64,000 bases of DNA from the human T2T-CHM13v2.0 reference genome, Homo sapiens: the NCBI RefSeq assembly GCF_009914755.1, contig NC_060936.1; one strand, written 5' to 3'. Below the pieces are notes generated by a model that saw only the letters and a list, made by a program, of their open reading frames with translations, made no database searches and was not told where the DNA came from. Position numbers and translations under genes: made by a program. Position 1 is the stretch's first letter, and the number at the start of each line of letters is the position of its first letter. Below are positions 40,654 to 62,848 of the stretch, in pieces.

Positions 40654-42197
40654 AGGCCTATCCACCAGTAGAGCAGAAACAAAGAGGGTCTGAAAGGTAG
40701 AGAGAGATGAAGCAGGTTCTGGTGGGATCCTTAAAGACCCCGGGTCAGCCTCATCTAAAATCAGCACAACTCTGGACTCCTAAGTCTCTTAAGATAATTC
40801 GAAGCTTCATGTAACAGAGTCCTGATGGTGTGGAGTCAGGATAAAGCATGAGGATATTCCACATCCATAATGATAAAACTATGATTATTCATGAGTGCTC
40901 CTGGCCTTCCAGGCCTCCGCTTCCATAAGACACATTGACAAGACACCCCACAGAGCTCGCACCTTCCTTGTTGGTGTAGTTTCTCTTTTTTTTTTCCTCT
41001 GGCAGTTTCATGACTGTCAACTCTTATTAAGCTTATTTTCATACGAATCTCCAAGTCTTTTTACACGTGTTCCTCTCAAACTCCTCTCTCGTACCTCCCA
41101 AGTCAGCGTGTGTGATCTACGTTCAGCATGTTGCAATATCCCCTTTGTCTCACATGTTAGATTGTCCTCATCTCAGGTGAGCTTTTGGTCACAACTCTGC
41201 CACGCAAAGGCCTTACCACTCCACCCCTTCTGTGTAGCTGCTCTTCTGAGGTTTGCGCGAAGGAGCTCATCTGTTTGGACAGCCACCTCTGATACAAATG
41301 TTCACCTGGGCAGGGCTGGGGACAGAGTCCTGGGGTCTCCTTGGAACGTGCTCAAGGTTCATACCACACCATCTGCTACCATCTGAGCTGCTGGGAATCC
41401 ACCAAAGCATAGCACCCCCCAGGTACACGTCACCGTTGTGTGGACAACAGTGCTGGGGTGAGCGCTAATCCCAGTGCCCAGCATCAGTAAGCACCGAATA
41501 CAGACCTCTTCATTTGTTTGTAACGTTACTGAAATCTCTATCTTTACTCCACATTCTATCCAGTAGCAAAACAAAGCTCTGTAGATACTGCCACACTCCC
41601 ACCCCACCCAATGATTTCAGGGATCACTTCTAAGTTTTGAGAGGTTCGGAGTGACCACAACAACCAGGAGGGCTTTGTGATTGGTACAAATGATATCTTG
41701 TCTCCTGTGGTCAGTCCACACAGACTATGGTTTGTGCCTCCCTGGTCTTGACCACAAGGCCTCCTCGGGCCAATTGGGCTTCCTCAGCCATGCCTGCACA
41801 GCCCTGGCTGCCAGGAAAAGATTCTGCTATTTGAGCCATGCTCGGGCATGCTGCCTGGTCACCTCATACGAACATTCCTTCTGCTTCATCTCCAGGCTAT
41901 TTAGGACAGAGTGTCTTCATTTGTGGCTCTCCCAATATATTCACGAAGTCAATCTAGAATATTTTTAATTTGTCATTGGAGTGACGTGGCACAGAGCAGC
42001 TGAAAAGCCCACCAGCATCTAAGCTGCCCTCCAAATTCTCCTGCCCTTTCCCCTAGTAAAAAAAAAAATTACTTGGTGAAGGAAGAAGAGAAAGGCTGAG
42101 AAACCATATGCCTGGGAAGATAGGTTCTTCCAAATCTTTTCTCTATTGCTGGATACCAGCTTTTGAAATCAAAAGTCAGGAATTTGATTTCTCTCTC

Positions 42198-42521
<324 letters not shown>

Positions 42522-42906
42522 TTGACTTTCCTGTCTCGCGCCTTCTGCTGTTCCAAGAGGCAGTGGCTGCCAGGTGTTCATCTGCACGAGAAAGGAGAGG
42601 CCAGGGCAGCAGGGAATGAGAGCAGGCAGGGCAATGTCGCCATCTGTTTTGATATCAAAATACTTTATTGCCACAATATCCTGCCAAACACTCTTTGAGT
42701 CTCGGCAGGCTATTTTATCACTGAAGCGTCTTCCCATCTACCAGTATAGCTTTCCTGACCAAAATGCAAACAAACAAATAGCAACAATGAAATCTGACAG
42801 ACATCTTCTTAGTGAATCTGCAGAGGGAGATTCCCATAAACATAAACATTTAATGTCACTCTCGTGAAAAGAATAACTTAATGTCACTAAAAGTTAAACA
42901 CTTTTT

Positions 42907-43067: not shown

Positions 43068-45344
43068 GAGGAGAAGTGGCTATTTGAATTCTCTTTCAAA
43101 GGCATGTTTTTTACCTTTATAACTGTTGACTGATCTGTTCTAAAACTATGTACTTCAGTCGCTTTTCAGATGCATGCCACAGGTTTGTTTACTTTCAAGG
43201 TCAAGGGCCTTCCTTCTCCATCAATTCTTAATTTATGGAGGGGGTGCACCTTGGGTGACTCCTGAAACCAATGTTTAAGGACAGAGGTGACGGAAGCACC
43301 TAGCCTCTGACTGTGGTATGTACCCCTTAATTCTTCCTACAGCAGATTTTTCTTTTAAATAAATGACAAAGTCATCTAAAAATATTCCGAGTCTTTGGTC
43401 CCATGTCACAACAAATCCATGCTGGTTTCCTCTTCGTTTTGTGAGAGGCCGCACCATATCATCTCCACAATTCATTCAAGTGTGCTGTCTGGCGTCAAAC
43501 ATCAAAATCAACAACGCATATGTTCACAGCATCAAGCATCCTTCTTCTGCAAACAGGAAGAGTCTGTGTCTTCATTCCGCATGCTTCTTCCTCATTCTTT
43601 ATAATTTCCCAGAGACCACTGATGTGTCACCTACACTTTTGGTCCTGGAAGACCAGAGGCCATGTCTTAGTCTTCCCTGCCCAGGACCCTACACATGTTA
43701 GGGACATAGATGAATAAACAGGTCCTGAAGACAGTCCACTGGGCATGTCTGCAAGTTCTTTAAGAAGCTTGACCTAGGGAGGTGGGGGAGGAGGAAAATA
43801 AAAATAAAAAAAACAAAAAAGAAGCTGACCTAGGAGATAACCAAACCATTCCACACCATCAGAGAATCTCTTCTACCTCCCTGGTGGTCTTGGAAGTAAA
43901 TCCCCATTTTAATCCCTTTCAGGTGTTATTTCTGATTGCTGCTGGAAAAAATAATGCTGAGAAAACTAAATAACATGATGTTCATTTATTCATTTGCTCA
44001 ACAAATATCAAGGGTCATCTGTATACCAGGCTCTGAGCTAAAAACTAAAATGGTCTCAAGACCTCTCTGCACTCAGCCCCTGGCAAGCCTGGCACCATGT
44101 AACAATTCTGCCTGACAAACCGCCTGGTTTTTAGTTATTCCATATAATTATCAGAAGTCAGCAGAATGGCCAGGGGTATGGGTTCTGGCATCAGAATTCA
44201 GACTCTGCCTGTCTTTTATGTTGCTATGACTTGGAGAAGTTACTTAACATCTCTGAACTTCAACTTCTGGTCCAGTACATATCTACCCCATTGAGTTTAT
44301 CTGCAAATTCACAAAAATTATCCTCATAAGTCACTCCGCACAGTGCCTGCCATACAACAATTACTCAAAACATTAGCTGGTATTATTGACCAAAGTATTT
44401 CCTGCGGCGCTCTGAATTACTGGAAAAGGCAGCATCAAACCACTGCACTGTCAGGTAAATGATTTCCAGCAATATTTCACACTCTTGGAAGCACAGTTAA
44501 AAATTGTATTGAGCCCCTGCAATGTCCAAAGCACAAAGCTAAAAATACTGGAGAGAAATCAGAGATAGAAAAAATACCCATTTTTTTGTCCCCTAGAAGA
44601 ACTTAAAATTTAGGAGAGGAGGCAGAAAATAGTTGTAGAATGTCAACCTTGTGAAAGGCAGAAGTGCACTCCCCCAAAAGATATTCACATCCAAATCCCT
44701 GAAATATGGGAATGTTGGTTACTTTATTTGGAAATGTTAAAAGGCGACGTGACTAAGTCAAGATGGGAGATTATGTGGATCACTTGGGATCCTCCCAGTC
44801 CATCCGGTAACGCCAGCCCATCCTTCAGACAAGGCGAGTCTTCCCAGTTACTCTAAGTCAACTGCCAAATTATCTGCATCCAGAGACACTCGCCCCATCC
44901 TCCAGAGCACACCCACAGTGCTAACTTTATGTTTTTCTGTGTAATTCACATGTTCCCCTATCTCTCCTACAAATGGCAAGTTCTCTGGGAATAGTAACCA
45001 TATCAACCTGTGCTTTTCCTCACTACGGTACTCCCTGTGCCCAGCACGGTATGGGGTGCATTGTTGGTGCTCAGAAGGCAGTTACTGTTATGAAATAGGA
45101 AAGGAGAGGGAACAAAGGAAGAGGGGAATGATGAATACGAAACTGCCCAGGTCTGAGCTTACAACTTAAAGCAACGGAGTAATGGTATGAGGCACTTTGA
45201 CATCTAGAGGAATGACTGGCACTAAACATCCCTACCTAAGGACGCTTTAGTACCTGTCCTGTGTCCTCACAACACTTAGAAATAGTTCCTGCTGAGCTCT
45301 GTGTTCACTGAAGGCATGTGGCCTTTGACATTTGTTGAATGAAT

Positions 45345-45805
45345 ATGCAGATGGATGGAATGATGAATGGATGGATGAAATGATAGATGGATAGATGGAA
45401 GGATGGGTGGATAGAAGGATGGAATGATGAATGAATGGATGGATGGGCAGACAGACAGATGGAAGGATGGATGGATGGATGGATGCACGGATGGATGGAT
45501 GGATGGATGGATGCATGGATGGATGGATGGATGCATGCATGGATGGATGGATGGATGGATGGATGGATGGATGGATGATGGATGGAGGGATGGATGGATG
45601 GATGGACTGGTAGATGGATGGGTGGATAATGGATGGATGCATGGATGGATGGATGGATGGATGGATGGATGGGTGGATGGGTAGATGGACTGGTGGATGG
45701 ACTGGTGGATGGATGGGTAGATGATGGATGGATGGACGGATGAATGAACGGGTGGATGGATGGGTGGATGGGATGATGGGTGAATACATGGGTGGAAAGA
45801 CGGAT
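45345..45805. repeat. (GGAT)n degenerate tetranucleotide array
   Basis: Read directly; begins at an L2-like TTGTTGAATGAAT end. Confidence 0.97.
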
Positions 45806-46263
45806 AACACCTGGATTAACAGAAAAATTGATAGATAAATTCTAAATATTGTGTAGCATAGCTTCTATAATAAAATATTTTTGAAATTTTTGTTGTTTAC
45901 TCATTTTTTCTTGGCTCTTAGAATATAACTAAGTTAAACAGATCCTCAAACTTGGAATTCTACCTTTCTATGCACATAAATATTTTTAATAAAATCACAT
46001 TTTGATTTAACTCTTTAATTCATACAAAACAAAACTTAGTGGTCTCTTCATTCTTTGTCTTTTCAATTTGACAGAATTTGAATGTAAGCAAAAAGCCACA
46101 CTCTCTCTCTCCCCCACTAACTGGCTCCCTTCTGATATTCTTTCCTCTCCCAAAAAGTTCCTGACCCCTAAAGAAGTTATCACTGTACTTTGAAGCTCTT
46201 TTTGGTCCACAGCTTCCTTCAATAAGGGTGGTGCTGTCCTACCCAGAAGCTTCACTCTGACCC

Positions 46264-47621
46264 AATTAACACCCCAGTGTCATCAAATTGTGTCAAATGG
46301 AATTTCATGATGCAGATATTATTTATAAGCTCAGGGACAGTTCAGTTCATGTCGCAATGTATTCATATCACCTCTCCTCTAAGATTCTCTGATCCCTTGA
46401 AAGTTCTCACCCAGCTGGAAATCGAATATGAACTATATTTAACAGGATTTTAATTGGAAGTAAACACACAGACACACCACACACAGACAATGCAAAGTGC
46501 CTAAACTGTCTGGGGCTGATTGAAAAAGAATATTACCAAGTATTAAACATCCGTTTCAGCATATTATTAGAGGCCAGAAGCTCTACATATGGAAGCAGTT
46601 TCAGGAAGGCGCTCCAAGAAGCCCACTGCCCAGGCCATTGGCTGCACTCAGCTGGAAGCAGGCAGAGCACGTGCCCAGCGCCACCCTAGGCACAGGGAGC
46701 ACGACACTGCCGCAGCCCCGCTCGCAATGTTGCAGGTCTCTCAGCGTCTGCTTCTTTCCTACCAGCATGTGCAAGGGAACATAACTGGGAAGGATGCACG
46801 TGAGGACTGTAACAAGCAACCTAAATGTGGCAACCCTCTTGACTTTGTATTTAAAAATCACCTTGCCCTCTGCCCAACTCCAATCTCCTCACCCATTTTT
46901 CCTCTCAGCCCACCCTCCATACACCTGCCCCCTCCCATAAAGTTCACAGTAATGCATTAAAGCTCATCTGCAGGCTAGCACCATTGCAAACTACATCAAG
47001 CTGCCAGCAAAGCTAGACCTTAAACATTTAAGGCCATTCCCCAGAAAAATTAGGGGCCATAGGACAAGGCTGCTGGGGAAACTCCGTGTGTCATACCATA
47101 CTTCCTAGGTCCCAGGGGCATAGAAATACAAGCAACAAAACTTTATGTTTATTTGTTTTTAAAAAATATCTACAAGAGGGTGGGTTTGTTCTATAACTAA
47201 TCATTTTCTGCTTATGAAATATAAACGTGTAAGGCTCAAGCATATTAACCTGGTATTAAAATCTGCCCTTTGTTTCATTCAAAAATTCCTATTTGGAAAG
47301 ACAATACAGTAGAAATGATAATATGTGGAAACAGATATTTAATACTTGATAATATTCTTTTTCAATCAGCCCCAGACAAATGAGGCACTTTGGGGTATGT
47401 GTGTATGTGTGTGTGTCTGTGTGTTTACTTTCAATTAAAATCCTTTTCAATATAGTCCATACTTGATTGCAAGATGGGTGAGAACTTTCAAGTGATCAGA
47501 GAATCTTAGAGGGAGGTGATATGAACACACTGGGAAAAGAATGGCCCTGTCCCTGAATGTATAAATCACATCTGCATCATGAAATTCCATTTTATGCAAT
47601 TTGCTAATAGGGGTGTTGATT
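46264..47621. repeat. Long inverted repeat: arms 46264-46569 and 47317-47621, ~750-bp spacer
   Basis: Arm 2 reverse complement aligns to arm 1 over ~305 bp at roughly 80-85% identity by eye, with perfect blocks such as TGTCTGGGGCTGATTGAAAAAGAATATTA (29 bp) and AAATGGAATTTCATGATGCAGAT (23 bp). Confidence 0.96.
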
Positions 47622-49258
47622 TTTTTCTTGTTCTTTGACATATTGTGACTAATCCTGAATCATCTACCATGTGCTCAGACTCTGCTAATTGCTGTACAAA
47701 GTCTCCACACAGAACTGATTCACTTTTGAACTGTCTGGCTGACTTGCTTAAGTTCAATACACAAAATATGTCATATGCTAGGCTTATCGTAAACATTTTA
47801 CGTGCTAATTTTTGGCCACCTAGTAAAGAGGCTTCCACATCACACAGGACCTCATTTAAGGACATGTTCAGTGTTCCCAGTTGAAAAAGTTCACAAGTAT
47901 TAGGCTAAATACAATTCTCTTCAACACTGCTCAGTCTAATAAAGAAATCAGTAACAGACCTATGTACCTAAGTGAAAAAACACAATAGTGAGGTCCTATT
48001 TCCAAAGCTATTCTGTACCTTTCTTAATACAACCTTGTTATTGCAGCATAAACACAAAGAAGTCTGGACCTATTATAAAACCAAGTGAGAACCAACCCCC
48101 CCCGCCCCAAAAAAAAAATGCTGGGCTGTTGTTGCTGTGGATTTTGGTTTTTTTAACCTCACGTCTGCCTGAGTCAGGTTCACTGAATTCATCAACCTTT
48201 TCTTTGGTTTCCTGTGCACATTATAAATCCAGAAGGCTCTGATCCCAGGGATTGTTCTAACTCATAATTAGGAAACGTGAGCCCATTTCAACCACACTTC
48301 AAAGACAGGGAAGGAGGGGGAACGTAAATTCCTCTTTCTAAATCGAACCATCACAGAACTCGGCATTTCAACTGTCTTCATCTATTATCAGATCCAAAGC
48401 AACATAACCTCAGTGATTCTGGAAGAACTCAGAGAACAGACAATTCATGTAATTAAAAGACTTTGTGCGTGATAATTGGCTTTGAAGTTTCTGAGAGAGA
48501 TCTCATCTCAAAAATCTTTGCAGAAAAATATGGGTACAGGGTTCTTGCAGCACGTATTAGAGACTGCTGAGACGCTTCACTCTCCTCCCAGTGTATCTAT
48601 CTGCAGGAAAGGGGCACGGGTGGGGGAACCACACACAAGCAGCCCAGGTCAATCATGAGAAAGAATCTCCCGCACAAATCACACCATTTCTCTTCAAGGA
48701 AGAATGACTGTCCAGAGCTTCCAAACTTGCTCTTCCCATGACAGACAGGGATGCTGGCAGAAGAGAAGAGGAAACATTGAGGAATTCCTGCCTTGACACA
48801 TGGCTTCAAGTCAGGGCTCCGCTGGGAAAATTCGGGTCACAACTTGTAGCTGAAACTCCACGTGCACCCTGCGGGGCCGCTGCTGCTCCCAGCACCCTAC
48901 GGAAGGGTGAGCGCCAGACCCTGTGCCCAAACCTCACAGCGGCAGACCTGGAGAAACCCATCCCCCTTCTTCAGAGCCGCCCCCCAGGCTATATTTTTGG
49001 CAGCCTATAATACACAAAATAGTATTCCCATACAACAGGAGTGCTCCAAAATTATTTCCAAATAGGTCAGTGCCACCAGGGAAAGTCAATCCCAAATTCC
49101 AGAAATCTCCCTGGTCATCTCAATCCCCTCCTCCCCCGACAGCCGGCTCGGCCCTCCAGAGGCCACCTTTCCTCTCAAGGGTCCCCACGCCCTCTCCCTT
49201 TACAGAAAAGGCTTTCAGGAAACAGCCTTCCTTTCCTTTCGGCTCCTTAGTAGTCTCA

Positions 49259-49636
<378 letters not shown>

Positions 49637-49685
49637 TCAGTCCCCTAGAGGCCCGCAGCGGGGCCGGTGGCGAGGGAGCGCCCGG

Positions 49686-49736
49686 CTAGGGGCCCGAGCA
49701 GCCCGGGCGCCCTGCTCCCTCTTCCCGCCAGTCCAT
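49686..49736 (-). other. Candidate uORF MDWREEGAGRPGCSGP* in the TMEM132D 5' leader
   Basis: GGCCATGG Kozak context; TAG at 49688-49686. Depends on the TSS lying above 49736. Confidence 0.6.
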
Positions 49737-51564
49737 GGCCAGGCCGGGAGGCGACGACCGCGCGGGCTCCTGAGTTGCTCTCCGGAGTCCAACACGCGCG
49801 CAGGCAAACCCCACCTCCCTCCTTCGACCCCAACAGAATTTTTTTTAAATTTTAATCCACAAGGGGTATTTCCTTTCCTGTTTACCCGAGCGAAGAGTGG
49901 CCCCCGGTGGCCCAAGGAGGGGCGCCTCCAGGCGCAGGGCTCCGGCGGCTCCAGCTGCTCCCGGGCTGGCTAGCGGGCGCTGGCGCAGGCGGCGCCGGGG
50001 TGGCGGGGCTGCGGAGCCCGGGACGCGGGCAGAGGCGGCTCGGAGCCCCCCGGGCGGGTGGCCGGGCTCGCTGGGCGGCCCGGGGCTCCCTGGCCCGCAG
50101 CCCCCATCCCAGGCCGGCCGCTGCGCCTCGGGGCTCGGGCGCGCGCGCGCTCCGGCACCCAAAGTTTGGCGGGTGCGGCTGCTCCCCGGCCGCCGCCTCG
50201 GCCCGCCCGGCCCCGGGCCCGGCTGGGGCTCGCGGGGCTCTACGCGCGCCGAGCGCACTGCAGGCTCCGGAGACGCGGGGCTCCCCCCTGCGCCCGGGGG
50301 AGGCGGGCCAGATGTGCGCGGAGGAGGGCCCGCCGGCTCGGGGACGCGGCCGAGCAACGCAGCTGCCTCCTGCCAGCAGGCGCGGGGGCTCCGCTCCGCA
50401 AGGACCGCATCCGGAACGGAACGGAGGCGATCGCCACGGTGCCCGGAGCCGGCTGGGGCTTTCGCCTTAAAAATTTGTCTGCTTTTAAAAAGCCCCACCC
50501 TTTCGGAGTGACAGCTGTGAGCCCCAATCCGCAAAGTAAATCCCACCTCCCCCTGGCCGCCCCACGCCCAGCCTCCCGGCCACCCTCCCTGCGAGCGCGG
50601 ACGCGCGGTGGCGGCGGGCGAGGGCTCCCAGCGCGGGCGCACCCCGGGGACGGAGCCACCCACTCTCCCAACAGGTGTCCAGCTGGCCACCGGCCTCTCG
50701 TCGTCATCAAAACCTCAGGCCCAGGGGAGGTCCTCCAGCCCGGGGGCACCTGAGGCTCTTCGCCAGGGAGAGCGCAAGGATGGCTGGAGAAGGGCCCTCG
50801 CCCCGCCCTGCGCATCTCCCAGGGATCGCAGTGAGGAAGTCTCTGACACGCCACACTGAGGTCATGCTGGCCCCAAGCCCCTTCCCAGAGCGATCCCCCA
50901 AGTTAGTGTCCCTAGAAACATGTCGTGTGCTCCCCAGGGCTCACTGGGAAAGGAAATGGATCCATTAGGAGACAACATTGCTTTGAGAAGATAAAAGACA
51001 TGATTCTCAACACCGCCCGGAATCTCCAACTAAGACATTCCCACACCAAGATCCCTAAGCACCGTCCTGTAATTTGTAGCCCAAGAACTGCTTTGCTCCA
51101 CGAGAGCCTTTAAATTAACCCCATCAAAGCTCAGAGGGAAGAAAAGCATTCAGAATTTTTAAGGAATATTGTAAACCAACAAGCCCTGAATCTAATGAGG
51201 TGAATTCACCTCAGTAGATAAAAATGGGTCGTTATCATCTGACTGAGGGGGCAATGGACTTTTTTATCCTGTATGCCTGTAGTTGCAGAAATATACCAAT
51301 GCTTTAAGAGTTTTTAGCTTTCAAAGTTTCAAGGAAGATCAAAAAAGCCACTGCTGTTCTACCGAAGATTGTTTTTCTGGGTTCATGTCCTTTGAGATGT
51401 GCTCTTGTCTTTTATTCTGTATCTACTTATCTGAATATATCTGTCTTTCTGTTTTTTCTTTTGTTTGTTTCTTAAACTTGTTGCCTTTTCTCTTTGTATT
51501 GCTCTCCTGTAAAATTCCTAAGAGTCGACGCTGCAAAGACCCTAAGAGATTGTCTCTTTCACTG

Positions 51565-56954: not shown

Positions 56955-57453
<499 letters not shown>

Positions 57454-58372
57454 TGAAACGGATCTGCTTGGGATTACTCCCTTGGGATGAAATATGGCCA
57501 GTTCTCTGTCAACAAATGTTTGACTCATCACAGGAGAGATTCCAGTCTCAAAAAAAGTGACTGAGGACAATAGTGAGCTCTCTGGGTCTGGAAATAAACG
57601 CAGCAGCAGGAGGGTATTCTTCTGTATTTGGCTTACAAGGTAATTTTAAATTACCCCAAATAGTAGAATATGTGACACCAGATTGATGGTATTTGACACT
57701 AGATTATTATTTTAACAGGTCAGAAAGGTTGAGGGGGGCACCTGGAGATTGGATCCTAAAACATTTTCTTGTGCACAGCCAGGGAGAGCAGCCGTGCCTG
57801 GCAGTGGGACCCACACACAGCTGGCAGCAGACCTGGCGCGCTCAGGCGCCCTGCTTGTGGCATCAGTGGACCTGCAGTGACCCCTAGTGCTCCAGAGGTG
57901 GCAGCTCAGGACAACTATTTCTTCCTCCAAGAACAAACGCATTGACATCTCCCTTCATACCCAACATGCACACGTTGTCAGGTCTTCATGGGTGAAATTA
58001 TATTTTTAAAAACTGGCAATGAGTCTTATCATCCCAAATTAATAAATAACATGGCCAAGCTCACACGCTTTCATTCAGGAAATCCTGCAATTCGGTGTCT
58101 ACAGCTATTATCTTGCACCCTCCATGCTGCCTAAAATATAAATTATCTTGCAATTGACTTAAAAATTGAAACATGAGAATTTATATCATATACATTCTTG
58201 AGTCAAACTTCAGTCATTCTTTAAAATCTGCCAAACAACTGATCACTTTCCAGTGAGTACAGCCACCCAGCACTGAGATTTTATAATGTTGGTTATTCAC
58301 ATGGATCGTTTCCAGACTAGAGGCTGCCAGCAGGATCCTCCACTTTTCCCTTGTCCTCCATCACCACCCTAC

Positions 58373-58700
58373 TGTCTTAGACTGCTCAGGCTTCTATAAC
58401 AAAAATACCATGGCTGGACGGCTTTAAAAAAAACAGACTTTAATTTATCACTTCTGGAGCCTAGAAGTCCAAGATCAAAGTGCCAGAAGATGCAGTGGCT
58501 GGTGAGGACCTGCTTCCTGGCCCGTCGATGGCACCTTCTCCTTGCCATAACCTCACACGGTGGGAGAGGAGAGACCAGGGGGCTCCTGGACCTCTGCTTT
58601 CCTGACTTAATCACCTCCCAAAGCCCCATCCTCCTGACACCATCACACTGGGGCTTAAGATTCCCACAGATGAATTCTGGGGATACATAGTTTATAGCAA
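58373..58700 (-). mobile_element. MLT1A/B-type MaLR LTR
   Basis: TGTCTTAG...CTATAACAAAATACCA...AAGTCCAAGATCAAAGTGCCAG...CACCATCACACTGGGG. Confidence 0.8.
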
Positions 58701-58764
58701 CTGCTTTCCAAGATAAAATGAGTCACTGGAAGAAAAGCAAAAATACTGATTCCTTCAGTGTTGC

Positions 58765-58930
58765 ATAAGAAAAAAGAAAAAGAGAAAGAAAGAGAGAGAG
58801 GAAGACGGAACAAAGGAAGGAAGGAAGGAAGGAAGGGAAGGAGGGATGGGATAGAGGGAGGGAGGGAGAGAGGGAGGGAAGAGAGGGAGGGAGCGAGGGA
58901 GGGAGGGAAGGAAGGAAGCAGTGGGGAAGA
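58765..58930. repeat. Polypurine (GGAA/GGGA/GA)n tract
   Basis: Read directly from the sequence. Confidence 0.93.
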
Positions 58931-59194
58931 GTCAGGGAGCACGCTATGTCTTGCCCTGGAAGAACATGATTTTGCGTGTGAGTTAGAGACAAGAGGGTTT
59001 GTAAGAAATTCGGAATCATGCCAGTATTGTGGAGAATCTTAGGGTTGGAGCATCCCAGCCATCACCTAATACAATCTTCTCACATTAGAGCTGAGGAAAA
59101 AAAAAAACTGAAAGAGGAAAGTCATAGACACAGTTATTGTTGCCTTTTAAAAACACTGCCATAAGGATACAATAATTTAGAAAATAAAAATCCA

Positions 59195-59457
59195 GCCAGG
59201 TACAGTGGCCCATATCTGTAAACCCAGCACTTTGGGAGGCCAAGGTGGGAGAATTGCTTGAGTCCAGGATTTTAAGACCAGCCTGGACAACCTAGTGAGA
59301 CCCTATCTCCACAAACAAAAAAAGGAAGGGAAATTATCTGGGTGTGGTGGTACACGCCTGCAGTCCTAGCTACTCTGGAGGGCGAGGCAGGTGGATCGCT
59401 TGAGTCCAAGAGTTCAAGACCAGCCTAGGCAACATAGTGAGACCCCATCTCTAAAAC

Positions 59458-59498
<41 letters not shown>

Positions 59499-59665
59499 GC
59501 AAAAGTAGCTGTGTGTGGTGGTACATTCCTGTAGTCCTAGCTACTTGAGAGGCTGAGGCAGAATGATTGCTTGAGGCCAGTCGTTCAAGGCTGCAATGAG
59601 CAATGATTTACTACACTCCATCCTGGGTGAGAGAGTGAGACCCTGTCTCAAAAAAAAAAAAAAAA
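59195..59665 (+). mobile_element. Three-monomer AluJ-like element with an internal (AAT)n microsatellite
   Basis: Left arm, hybrid arm and right arm; (AAT)~13 at 59458-59497; flanks AAAAATC(C/T)A. Confidence 0.85.
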
Positions 59666-60132
59666 TCTAACAAGAAAACACTTCTCATTGCCAAAACTGG
59701 CCTCTCCTAGTCAATATTTTCAGTTTGATCTGAAAGTGGCTATTCATGAGTATCCTTGGCTGTTTCTCAGGGACTGTTTCAAGTGAACTAAACTCCAAGC
59801 TGTTTAGGTTTGTTTTTCTCTTCTCTTTTCTTTTCCTTTTAATCTGGCACTCCTGAACTGGGACCACTTTGGAAATAACTTCTATAAAATCCATTATGAA
59901 AAATCTGTGCTTAAAACACATGTATTTATCAGATATTTCAAAATGCTTTCTAAAATTAGCCTTCAAAAAATGACAATTTAGCTAAATATTCCTTGCTAAC
60001 AAAACTAGTGTTCATCACATATGTGCCTACCTTGAGTGGATGCCTATTAATAAATTGCAGATGCTCTGATCATCCACCTTCTCGTGCTGGATGAAACCCA
60101 CTGTGTTTCAAATGCAAAACAGTGCAGTAGCT

Positions 60133-60217
60133 GAAGATTAATCTAGAGGTGGCACCTAAATCGGACCAAGTGCAGAAGATTAGTCTAGAGGTGGCACCTA
60201 AGTCGGACCAAGCGCAG
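60133..60217. repeat. 42-bp two-copy tandem duplication
   Basis: GAAGATTA(A/G)TCTAGAGGTGGCACCTAA(A/G)TCGGACCAAG(T/C)GCA occurs twice. Confidence 0.95.
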
Positions 60218-60403
60218 CACTGTCTGAGGACCTTTGAACCTGGAAGGAATGAGAATCTCGCTTTGGATATCTGGAATATATGATGCGAAACAGGGACGTT
60301 GCTGCTCAAATTTCCTGCCCCAGGATGGAGAACTAGAGGAAGTAACACGTGAAGAAGGATATTTAAGAGACAGAGAAAGTTTGGCTGCCATTGTAGTGCC
60401 TAG

Positions 60404-60741
<338 letters not shown>

Positions 60742-61156
60742 CATAAATGCCACTTTTTGCTTAAACTGGTCTAGATTGAGTTATCCTCTCACTACCAAAA
60801 GATCATCTCTCATCTGTCATCTCTCATCTAACTCAACCTCCTTGCTGGGCTCCTGCTTCCATCCTGATTTAACAAATACTGGAGAAATAGGAGTCAGATC
60901 TTGTCACTCTGGCTCAAAACTGTCCCATAGCTCCCAGCCCACTCAGTGCAAAGCTGAAGTCCCTGCAATGCCCTGCAAGGCTGTACATGAGCTGCCTCCT
61001 GTTTCAGCCAGCCAGGCTCCTCCTCCATCAGACACCAGCATCGTACTTGACAGACGCCTCTGCAGAGACTGCTCCCTCTGCTGGGAACAGCCTTCCATCA
61101 GATACCCGTAAGATTCTCTTTTCTCACGTCATTCTAGTCTCTGCTGAATATCACTA

Positions 61157-61488
<332 letters not shown>

Positions 61489-62031
61489 TGACATTTGCCT
61501 AGCATCACCCATCTCTTTCTATCTTCTCCTGTGCTATATTTCATGACATTCATCAACACCTAAATAGCCTATTTGTTCGATGTCTCACTCCCCACTCCCC
61601 CAGAGCTAGAATCTAAGCTCCCTGAGAGCCATAGCTTTGGCTGTTTTGTCTACTGGTCTGTTCTTATGGCTCAGGACACTGGAGAATCATGCAGACCCCC
61701 TGTAAGAGTGTTAAAATCAATTCCTCAATCAATGGCTTTTCTTCTCCCACCTCCTTACTTCACCCAGCCTGAAAGAAAATGTGTTCTTCCTCATATTTGA
61801 AGAGGAGACTTCACCTACTGTTTTTTGATGAAACAGTCATTTAGCTTAGTGAACATTCAATAAACTCAAGGGTGAAGTTCAGTTCATCGGACCACCCGTT
61901 TCACTTATGGGGAAGCTGAGACTGAGAGAAGCAAATGACTTGCCCCGGTTGTATTTTTTCCCATGGAAGGGGAGTCCCTGTGAAATTCACGATTACTTAT
62001 TATTTACCAGTTCTTCTTTCACTCAACACAT

Positions 62032-62293
62032 TTTTTTTTTTTTTTTTTTTGAGACAGAGTCCTGCTTACTCACCCAGGCTGGAGCACAGTGGCGCAATCT
62101 TGGCTCACTGCAACCTCTGCCTCCTGGGCTAAAGCGATAGTCCTGCCTCAGCCTCCTGAGTAGCTGGGACTACAGGCATGTGCCACCACGCCCAGCTAAT
62201 TTTTGTATTTTTAGTAGAGATGGAGTTTCGCCATGTTGGCCAGGCTAGTCTCAAACTCCTGACCTCAGGTGATCCGCCTGCCTCGGCCTCCCC
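62032..62293 (-). mobile_element. Alu (AluS-like), 5'-truncated
   Basis: Antisense Alu ending at CCTCGGCCTCCC. Confidence 0.93.
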
Positions 62294-62431
62294 ACTCAAT
62301 GCAATTTCGAGGCAGTGCTGCAGGGTGGCTCAAGTGGAGCCCCTGCTGGGGATAGGATTAGCAGCTATGTGACTGCCAAGTTACTTCCCCTTTCTGAGCC
62401 CTACATTCCTCGTCTTAAAAAATGTAGACTA

Positions 62432-62848
<417 letters not shown>

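What the first reader, a model, noticed from the sequence alone, without database searches (positions are those of the whole stretch)
46264..47621. Non-transposon ~305-bp inverted repeat: candidate long dsRNA hairpin near the start of TMEM132D intron 1
Seen: two ~305-bp arms in opposite orientation around a ~750-bp spacer, beginning ~1.9 kb downstream of the exon 1 donor. Perfect blocks of 18-29 bp alternate with clustered mismatches. I do not recognise the arms as Alu, L1, LTR or MITE. By eye, isolated transition mismatches in the well-paired stretches mostly give G-U wobbles on the transcribed minus strand (about 8 vs 2), although over all transitions the split is near even (about 10 vs 9). 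Established: long imperfect intronic duplexes are ADAR substrates and can affect splicing or yield small RNAs; most human examples are Alu pairs. Inference: an old inverted duplication possibly maintained as an RNA structure (editing, splicing or hairpin-derived small RNA), or a mirrored pair of enhancer modules.
Basis: partly seen in the sequence, partly recalled or inferred. Interest (0 to 1): 0.8.

Follow-up and report, generated by a model that had tools for sequence, protein, structure and literature searches.

The report
Old low-copy inverted duplication in intron
A genuine pair of about 300-base inverted copies sits in the first intron of TMEM132D and should fold into a long RNA hairpin, but it looks like a decaying old duplication rather than a structure kept by selection.

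Summary
Arms 46264-46567 and 47318-47621 are inverted copies (258 of 301 aligned bases identical, 750-bp spacer, 1,874 nt from the low end of exon 1).

They are not a repeat family. The genome holds only the two arms and one partial copy on C10, while a control repeat gave 7,811 candidates.

On the transcribed minus strand the arms should pair end to end (260 of 304 nt, duplex -382 kcal/mol). That is comparable to Alu-sized inverted pairs nearby.

Nothing indicates the pairing is maintained:
- G-U-preserving transitions are 12 vs 10 (p = 0.83), or 6 vs 2 for isolated ones (p = 0.29).
- The arms are no closer to each other than to the C10 copy (unique changes 7, 9, 9).
- Single arms have no structure of their own.

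The C10 copy looks like an L1-mediated retrocopy of a + strand transcript of the right-arm side.

Best reading: a neutral inverted duplication tens of millions of years old, and probably an incidental nuclear ADAR substrate. Cross-species conservation, Dfam annotation and editing data could not be checked.

The parts
46264..46567 (.). Left arm (A) of the inverted repeat, 304 nt, GC 0.37
   Evidence: Pairs with 47318-47621 at 258 of 301 aligned bases.
46462..46489 (.). Interrupted (CA)n-like core inside the left arm. The mirrored TG-rich core is at 47396-47426 in the right arm.
   Evidence: This core accounts for the 15 short extra genome hits (query positions 181-249).
46568..46780 (.). GC-rich part of the spacer (GC 0.60, 8 CpG, CpG o/e 0.42), unique in the genome
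46781..47133 (.). Middle of the spacer, unique in the genome, no coding trace
   Evidence: only the self match. (0 Pfam families for the 5 frames submitted, chosen from 23 listed).
47134..47317 (.). Spacer segment next to the right arm. It is not part of the duplex, but it is collinear with the right arm in the C10 copy.
   Evidence: Window 47163-47454 matches C10:55163553-55163265 at 84% over 294 columns. Window 47134-47264 matches a second, tandem unit at 83%.
47318..47621 (.). Right arm (B) of the inverted repeat, 304 nt, GC 0.36, no CpG
47434..47439 (+). ATTAAA on the + strand, 15 nt before the point (47454) where the C10 copy's homology ends and its A-rich tail begins. A mirrored ATTAAA lies on the - strand at 46449-46454.

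Best explanation
This is a low-copy inverted duplication, not a transposon family. About 304 bp of the right-arm region was copied in reverse orientation 750 bp away (or the other way round) tens of millions of years ago. Both copies have decayed at the neutral rate since. At about the same time, a + strand transcript (antisense to TMEM132D) covering 47134-47454 was polyadenylated after the ATTAAA in the right arm and was retro-copied by L1 machinery to C10. That is the only other copy in the genome.

Today both arms lie in the TMEM132D primary transcript (minus strand), 1.9 kb into an intron of about 800 kb. There they should snap into a roughly 300-bp imperfect duplex closing a 750-nt loop. 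That is physically equivalent to an inverted Alu pair, so it is most likely an incidental nuclear ADAR substrate that is discarded with the intron and has no selected role.

Shown: the repeat, its low copy number, the predicted duplex, the lack of any signal of maintained pairing, and the junction features of the C10 copy.

Inferred: the neutrality, the age, the retrocopy origin of the C10 copy, the DNA-level mechanism of the inverted copy, and the editing.
For: Repeat geometry and identity.

Low copy number:
- Searches of the 3.1-Gb genome with the left arm, right arm, outer half-arm, spacer and the C10 copy return only A, B and C10 (first-look candidates 3, 15, 2, 2, 3).
- All 15 further matches cover only the CA/TG core.
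- A 34-nt pattern with up to 3 mismatches finds 3 places, and the reversed control finds 0.
- Sensitivity control: an old repeat from the same window gives 7,811 candidates; of the 40 scored, the long matches are at 72-81% identity.

Predicted duplex:
- 260 of 304 arm nucleotides pair arm to arm in the MFE fold of the 1,358-nt minus strand. There are 12 G-U pairs and the longest helix is 52 bp.
- Duplex energy is -381.8 kcal/mol, against -431 and -475 for two Alu-sized masked inverted pairs in the window.

No maintenance signal:
- Transitions giving G-U are 12 on the minus strand and 10 on the plus strand (p = 0.83). Isolated ones are 6 vs 2 (p = 0.29).
- On the 132 columns shared by A, B and C10, unique changes are 7, 9 and 9, so the tree is a star and the arms changed as much as the C10 copy.
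- The non-duplex extension is as similar to C10 (84%) as the arms are (85-86%).
- The longest perfect run, 29 nt, is expected (P = 0.23).
- Single arms and the spacer have no structure of their own (z = +1.44, +0.78, +1.21).
- No Rfam match reached its family's gathering score (4 matches at E up to 1, 19.5-27 bits against thresholds of 64-90).

C10 copy as a retrocopy:
- Its homology ends 15 nt after the ATTAAA.
- An A-rich run follows (15 of 19; only 166 of 39,952 local positions are as A-rich).
- The 8-mer after the tail recurs just 5' of the copy, and the site reads TTTT/A.
- These are the class 1 features described in PMC5110952 (abstract and sections 8 and 9 read).
Against: - No cross-species alignment, population data, RNA-seq, editing or small-RNA data could be consulted, so neutrality rests on internal comparisons only.
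- The relative-rate comparison (7 and 9 vs 9 changes) has little power. A halving of the rate in the arms would not be excluded.
- Three weak signals point the other way. Isolated transitions favour the transcribed strand 6 to 2. The minus-strand duplex is 15.7 kcal/mol more stable than the plus-strand one. There are 5 perfect runs of 18 nt or more against 1.98 expected (P = 0.011, one of three statistics tried, uncorrected).
- ts:tv is 22:21, lower than the roughly 2:1 I recall for neutral human DNA (binomial p = 0.025). Transversions concentrate in mismatch clusters (14:19, against 8:2 for isolated ones; Fisher p = 0.069).
- The star tree means the inverted duplication and the retrocopy happened at nearly the same time. 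Two independent events do not explain that.
- The TSD-like 8-mer alone is not significant (shuffle P = 0.14).
- 10 nt at the 5' end of the C10 insert do not align.
Confidence: 0.6

Rival explanations
1. Relic of a non-autonomous DNA transposon with about 300-bp terminal inverted repeats, possibly piggyBac-like with a TTAA target. It inserted as one 1.35-kb unit, and the C10 copy is a fragment or transcript copy of the same element. The function today would be the same incidental hairpin.
For: - The star tree of A, B and C10 (7, 9, 9 unique changes) is what identical TIRs and a burst would give.
- The arms end at the same base on both sides.
- The left edge reads TTAA directly before CACCCC, and the right edge reads TTGA directly after GGGGTG. 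That is a TTAA duplication with one transition.
- The per-arm divergence of about 7-8% is in the range I recall for the last DNA-transposon activity in primates.
Against: - No family exists: the genome holds no further copy at the sensitivity shown by the control.
- TTAA is a palindrome, so it extends any inverted repeat by chance, and the match is imperfect.
- The termini do not begin with the CCC that I recall for piggyBac ends.
- The 5 spacer and flank frames submitted match no Pfam family (0 of 5). A non-autonomous element need not have one.
- Both flanks are unique, so no paralogous empty site could be found.
- The C10 copy ends in a tail after a poly(A) signal, which points to RNA-mediated copying, not transposition.
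Confidence: 0.13
2. A selected intronic RNA hairpin. The duplex is kept because editing, Dicer processing or a structural effect on exon 1 to exon 2 splicing matters for TMEM132D.
For: - Strong predicted duplex on the transcribed strand, close to the 5' splice site.
- Isolated transitions 6 vs 2 in the wobble-preserving direction.
- Minus-strand duplex 15.7 kcal/mol more stable than the plus-strand one.
- Excess of perfect blocks of 18 nt or more (5 vs 1.98, P = 0.011).
Against: - None of those signals survives a test: p = 0.29 for the isolated transitions and 12 vs 10 overall.
- The arms are no closer to each other than to the C10 copy, and there is no excess of columns where the two arms agree against C10 (9, against 7 and 9 single-arm changes).
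- 43 mismatches and 6 gap columns have accumulated.
- The non-paired extension is equally similar to C10.
- No Rfam family reaches threshold.
- Intronic dsRNAs are reported as edited mainly by nuclear ADAR1 p110 and removed by splicing (PMC12695637, passages read).
- Long inverted repeats are very common in vertebrate genomes: 4,590,178 in 208 genomes even with arms over 400 nt (PMC8728187, passages read).
Confidence: 0.08
3. Paralogous regulatory DNA. The arms and the C10 copy are copies of an AT-rich enhancer module, mirrored around a GC-rich core, and kept by selection on protein binding rather than on RNA pairing.
For: - The copies lie in or near large neuronal-type gene regions.
- The spacer holds a GC-rich, CpG-bearing segment (46568-46780, GC 0.60).
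- A RefSeq enhancer lies 1.2 kb away (hub table).
Against: - No annotated functional element overlaps the repeat (hub table).
- The C10 copy carries a tail, a tandem duplication (91 of 100 identical) and abuts an unrelated repeat. That looks like a dead insertion rather than a conserved module.
- The arms changed as much as that copy.
Confidence: 0.05

Closest known systems
Inverted Alu pairs (IRAlus) in introns, the main human ADAR substrates
   Same: Two inverted copies of about 300 nt, within 1-2 kb, in one pre-mRNA. Similar identity and predicted duplex energy (-382 vs -431 and -475 kcal/mol for pairs in this window). The expected fate is the same: nuclear editing, then removal with the intron (PMC12695637, passages).
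   Different: The arms are not SINEs or any repeat family: the genome holds 3 copies. They are AT-rich (GC 0.36-0.37). The pair arose by one local duplication, not by two independent insertions.
Long inverted repeats / hairpin-RNA loci as catalogued in LIRBase (PMC8728187)
   Same: Left arm, loop, right arm architecture. It meets the match and indel thresholds described there (at least 80% matches, at most 10% indels; here 85.7% and 6 of 307 columns).
   Different: The arms are 304 nt, below that database's 400-nt cut-off, so it would not be listed. No small-RNA evidence could be examined.
Class 1 templated sequence insertions (L1 ORF2p acting on non-L1 RNA; PMC5110952). This applies to the C10 copy.
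   Same: An intronic fragment as template, a poly(A) signal 15 nt before an A-rich tail, an 8-bp duplicated word at both junctions, and a TTTT/A site (paper sections 8 and 9).
   Different: It is old and fixed rather than polymorphic. The signal is ATTAAA, not AATAAA. The tail is degenerate (15 of 19 A). The duplicated word is not significant alone (P = 0.14). The copy also carries an internal tandem duplication.
Non-autonomous DNA transposons with terminal inverted repeats (MITE-like, piggyBac TTAA type)
   Same: Inverted termini ending at the same base, possible TTAA/TTGA flanks, and arms that are equally diverged.
   Different: No family, no clean target-site duplication, and arms far longer than typical TIRs. 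The only other copy looks RNA-derived.

Membership tests
Intronic inverted-repeat dsRNA of the IRAlu kind (works-like comparison) | Two inverted copies within a few kb in the same primary transcript, able to form a duplex of about 300 bp | tested here: met
   260 of 304 nt paired, -381.8 kcal/mol. Both arms lie inside TMEM132D intron 1 (hub table).
Intronic inverted-repeat dsRNA of the IRAlu kind (works-like comparison) | Arms are Alu/SINE copies (high-copy family) | tested here: not met
   The genome holds 3 copies, against 7,811 candidates for a control repeat.
Intronic inverted-repeat dsRNA of the IRAlu kind (works-like comparison) | Clusters of A-to-I editing over both arms | not testable with these tools
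   No RNA-seq or editing database was available. Full-text searches for TMEM132D with 'A-to-I' (1 paper, a microRNA review judged from its listing only, not opened) and with 'inverted repeat' (3 papers, judged unrelated from their listings, not opened) gave nothing on this locus.
DNA transposon / MITE with terminal inverted repeats | Multiple dispersed copies sharing both termini | tested here: not met
   The outer 177 nt of the arm has only the two arm copies. The whole arm adds only C10, which lacks the outer 165 nt.
DNA transposon / MITE with terminal inverted repeats | Target-site duplication directly flanking the termini | tested here: inconclusive
   TTAA on the left and TTGA on the right. 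The motif is palindromic and imperfect. No 8-bp or other direct repeat is seen at the edges.
DNA transposon / MITE with terminal inverted repeats | Transposase remnant, or an empty site in a paralogous repeat | tested here: not met
   0 Pfam families for the 5 frames submitted. Both flanks are unique in the genome, so no paralogous empty site exists.
Hairpin-RNA / LIR locus (LIRBase criteria) | At least 80% matches and at most 10% indels between the arms | tested here: met
   85.7% matches and 6 of 307 gap columns. Criteria as read in PMC8728187.
Hairpin-RNA / LIR locus (LIRBase criteria) | Both arms longer than 400 nt | tested here: not met
   The arms are 304 nt. The homology does not extend further.
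Hairpin-RNA / LIR locus (LIRBase criteria) | Small RNAs mapping to the arms | not testable with these tools
   No small-RNA data were available.
Class 1 templated sequence insertion / L1-mediated retrocopy (C10 copy only) | Poly(A) signal 10-20 nt upstream of an untemplated A tract | tested here: met
   ATTAAA ends 15 nt before the homology end. An A-rich run (15 of 19) follows, and only 0.4% of local positions are as A-rich. It is the variant hexamer, and the tail is degenerate.
Class 1 templated sequence insertion / L1-mediated retrocopy (C10 copy only) | Target-site duplication of at least 5 bp at a TTTT/A site | tested here: inconclusive
   The 8-mer lies at C10:55163243-55163250 and 55163698-55163705, and the site reads TTTT/A. 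The shuffle P for a shared 8-mer is 0.14. The left flank is unique, so there is no empty-site paralogue.
Any Rfam RNA family | Covariance-model score at or above the gathering threshold | tested here: not met
   Over 44000-50500 there are 4 matches at E up to 1, all far below threshold. The only one overlapping the repeat is SCARNA7 at 24 bits, against a threshold of 65.

The most novel reading that the evidence does not exclude
A lineage-specific, non-Alu, single-locus hairpin 1.9 kb into TMEM132D intron 1 is a constitutive ADAR or Dicer substrate in brain. It tunes TMEM132D pre-mRNA processing or yields hairpin-derived small RNAs. The same locus also has, or had, its own polyadenylated antisense transcript that was active in the germ line and seeded the C10 retrocopy.
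Probability: 0.07. Interest if true: 0.55.

Novelty: new member of a known kind. Interest (0 to 1): 0.2.

Why it matters
If the ordinary reading is right, it matters little. It is one more long inverted repeat among the tens of thousands per vertebrate genome, and a likely by-product ADAR substrate that never leaves the nucleus.

Its modest value is as a clean non-Alu example. Because the arms are essentially unique, reads map to them unambiguously. That makes it a convenient natural test case for editing, duplex-capture and intron-structure studies in a brain-expressed gene. It could also serve as a dated marker of a small inverted duplication plus a retro-copied intronic fragment.

It would matter more only if orthologue alignments showed constraint on pairing, or if arm deletion changed TMEM132D expression.

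Tried and rejected
- Multi-copy transposon family: rejected by seven searches of the window's own genome plus a sensitivity control (control 18).
- Insertion into a pre-existing repeat (paralogous empty-site test): uninformative. The flanks of the chr12 element and the left flank of the C10 copy are all unique.
- Wider homology between the two loci: none. 14 kb of the window against 20 kb of C10 shares only the roughly 420-bp copy and an unrelated old repeat.
- Transposase or other coding remnant: 23 stop-to-stop frames of 40 aa or more were listed. The 5 I submitted have 0 Pfam families.
- Known RNA family, or a structured RNA in a single arm: nothing.
- Gene conversion or selected blocks: the longest run is as expected. 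The count of runs of 18 nt or more is nominally high (P = 0.011), but transversion-rich mismatch clusters suggest complex mutation events.
- A target-site duplication for the repeat next to the C10 copy: no recurrence of the junction words within 9.5 kb. That neighbour looks L1-like to me from memory only; I did not test it.
- Literature on this locus: nothing relevant (judged from listings only).
- Twin priming as the origin of the arm pair: considered and rejected on geometry. The inverted piece copies the same end of the unit as the direct piece, and no tail flanks either arm.

Full report
**Observation.**
- The repeat finder reports three collinear inverted blocks.
- A gapped alignment merges them into arms 46264-46567 and 47318-47621. 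It has 307 columns: 258 matches, 22 transitions, 21 transversions and 6 gap columns (85.7% identity). The spacer is 750 bp.
- blastn within the window scores the pair at E = 3.9e-88.
- The right arm ends 1,874 nt from the low end of exon 1.
- The window holds 17 inverted pairs of 80 nt or more within 5 kb, and 3 of them are this repeat. Of the other 14, 12 have both arms in or overlapping stretches the hub lists as masked, and 2 have one arm there (my comparison with the hub table). This is therefore the only long inverted repeat in the window with neither arm in a stretch listed as masked.

**Copy number.** The window's own 3.1-Gb assembly could be searched.
- The left arm, right arm, outer 177 nt of the arm, spacer and the third copy each returned only three places. 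These are the two arms and C10:55163265-55163687.
- The 15 extra short matches for the right arm all cover only the CA/TG-rich core, query positions 181-249.
- A 34-nt pattern from the best-conserved block, with up to 3 mismatches, hits the same three places. The reversed control hits none.
- As a sensitivity control, an old repeat from the same window (42161-42522) gave 7,811 first-look candidates. Of the 40 scored, the long matches were at 72-81% identity.
- So the arms do not belong to any family detectable down to roughly 72% identity.
- I could not run Dfam/RepeatMasker. An ancient family whose members are now too diverged to detect this way cannot be excluded.

**The third copy.**
- C10 is collinear with window 47163-47454 (84% over 294 columns). 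That is the inner 137 nt of the right arm plus the adjoining spacer. It also carries a tandem second unit matching 47134-47264. The two tandem units are 91 of 100 identical.
- It lacks the outer 165 nt of the arm.
- 14 kb of the window and 20 kb of C10 share nothing else except an unrelated old repeat.
- Read in the window's + sense, the homology ends at 47454, 15 nt after an ATTAAA (47434-47439). In C10 an A-rich run follows at once (15 of 19 A; 166 of 39,952 local positions are as A-rich).
- After that run comes an 8-mer that recurs just 5' of the copy, and the site reads TTTT/A.
- These are the features of class 1 templated insertions made by L1 ORF2p on non-L1 RNA (PMC5110952; abstract and sections 8 and 9 read).
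- Caveats: the 8-mer alone is not significant (shuffle P = 0.14). The hexamer is the variant form. Ten nucleotides at the 5' end do not align. The left flank is unique, so there is no paralogous empty site.
- I rate the retrocopy reading at about two in three.
- If it is right, the right-arm side was once transcribed on the + strand, antisense to TMEM132D, in the germ line.

**Is the pairing maintained?**
- On the transcribed minus strand the arms are predicted to pair along their whole length. 260 of 304 nt pair arm to arm, with 12 G-U pairs and a longest helix of 52 bp. The MFE of the 1,358-nt stretch is -612.7 kcal/mol.
- The duplex energy is -381.8 kcal/mol on the minus strand and -366.1 on the plus strand. 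Two Alu-sized inverted pairs from the same window give -431 and -475.
- None of the tests for selection on this pairing is positive.
  - Transitions that leave a G-U pair number 12 on the minus strand and 10 on the plus strand (p = 0.83). Isolated ones number 6 and 2 (p = 0.29).
  - On the 132 columns shared by all three copies, unique changes are 7 (left arm), 9 (right arm) and 9 (C10), with one column where all differ. The arms are no closer to each other than to C10, and they have changed as much as a copy that is probably a dead retrocopy.
  - There is no excess of columns where both arms agree against C10.
  - The spacer extension is not part of the duplex, yet it is as similar to C10 as the arms are.
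  - A single arm on either strand, and the spacer, fold no better than shuffles (z = +1.44, +0.78, +1.21).
  - No Rfam family reaches threshold.
- Power is low. With 7-9 events per branch, a two-fold slowdown would go unseen.
- Three weak signals lean the other way: the 6:2 isolated transitions, the 15.7 kcal/mol strand difference, and 5 perfect runs of 18 nt or more against 1.98 expected (P = 0.011, uncorrected, one of three statistics).
- The run excess goes with transversion-rich mismatch clusters (14 ts: 19 tv clustered, against 8: 2 isolated; Fisher p = 0.069). I read these as complex mutation events or small replaced patches.

**Origin.**
- Kimura distance from the counts is about 0.16 between the arms, or about 0.08 per arm (my arithmetic). 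With neutral rates recalled from the literature (about 1-2.2 x 10^-9 per site per year), that is some 35-80 million years.
- No clean target-site duplication flanks the element. The edges read TTAA on the left and TTGA on the right. This is a weak lead towards a piggyBac-type insertion, but a palindrome extends any inverted repeat by chance.
- The spacer has no coding trace.
- Neither arm is followed by a tail, and the geometry does not fit twin priming.
- I therefore favour a DNA-level inverted copy, either a templated repair patch or a fold-back or template-switch event. The mechanism is not shown.
- The near-simultaneity of the inverted duplication and the retrocopy (the star tree) remains unexplained. 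It is the best argument for the transposon rival.

**Function.**
- The most likely behaviour is that of an inverted Alu pair. It forms a nuclear duplex in the nascent intron, ADAR edits it, and it is discarded with the intron.
- Passages read in PMC12695637 report that intronic dsRNAs are edited mainly by nuclear p110 and are not sensed by cytosolic MDA5.
- LIRBase (PMC8728187, passages read) lists 4,590,178 long inverted repeats in 208 vertebrate genomes, even with a 400-nt arm cut-off that this one fails. So the class is common.
- Full-text searches for TMEM132D with 'inverted repeat' (3 papers) and with 'A-to-I' (1 paper) found nothing on this locus, judging from the listings only; I did not open these papers. 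Supplementary editing tables were not searched.

**Verdict.** 'Maintained RNA structure' and 'mirrored enhancers' are not supported. This is a new, unannotated member of a well-known kind, of low interest unless orthologue or RNA data show constraint or processing.

Noticed in passing
window 45331-45801: About 470 bp of GGAT/ATGG-type four-base tandem repeat with 8- and 12-nt register shifts, 460 bp from the left arm. It overlaps the masked stretch 45358-45691.
   Followed up: no
window 46568-46780: The spacer next to the left arm is GC 0.60 with 8 CpG (o/e 0.42) and holds a CACGTG, in sharp contrast to the AT-rich arms. It is unique in the genome and is not annotated as a RefSeq element. It could be a regulatory patch, or the start region of the inferred + strand transcript.
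   Followed up: partly
window 49200-50800: A CpG island covers exon 1 and the TMEM132D promoter (CpG o/e 0.65-0.92, GC up to 0.84).
   Followed up: no
window 49330-49401 and 47294-47434: Sub-threshold Rfam matches: mir-297 at 27 bits (threshold 90), sno_ZL1 at 21 (threshold 64) and SCARNA7 at 24 (threshold 65). I put them down to low-complexity sequence and take them as chance.
   Followed up: no
window 57065-62738: A cluster of Alu-sized masked stretches forming many inverted pairs upstream of the TMEM132D promoter (9 of the 17 pairs). It lies outside the gene as annotated.
   Followed up: no
L003 1789-1923 (C10:55163411-55163687): The C10 copy carries an internal tandem duplication of about 130 bp. 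Its units are 91 of 100 identical, so it is younger than the copy itself. The copy abuts a stretch that I recognise only from memory as L1-like.
   Followed up: partly
window 42161-42522: A high-copy old repeat, used as the sensitivity control. It gave 7,811 first-look candidates, with long scored matches at 72-81% identity and three copies within 20 kb of the C10 locus.
   Followed up: partly
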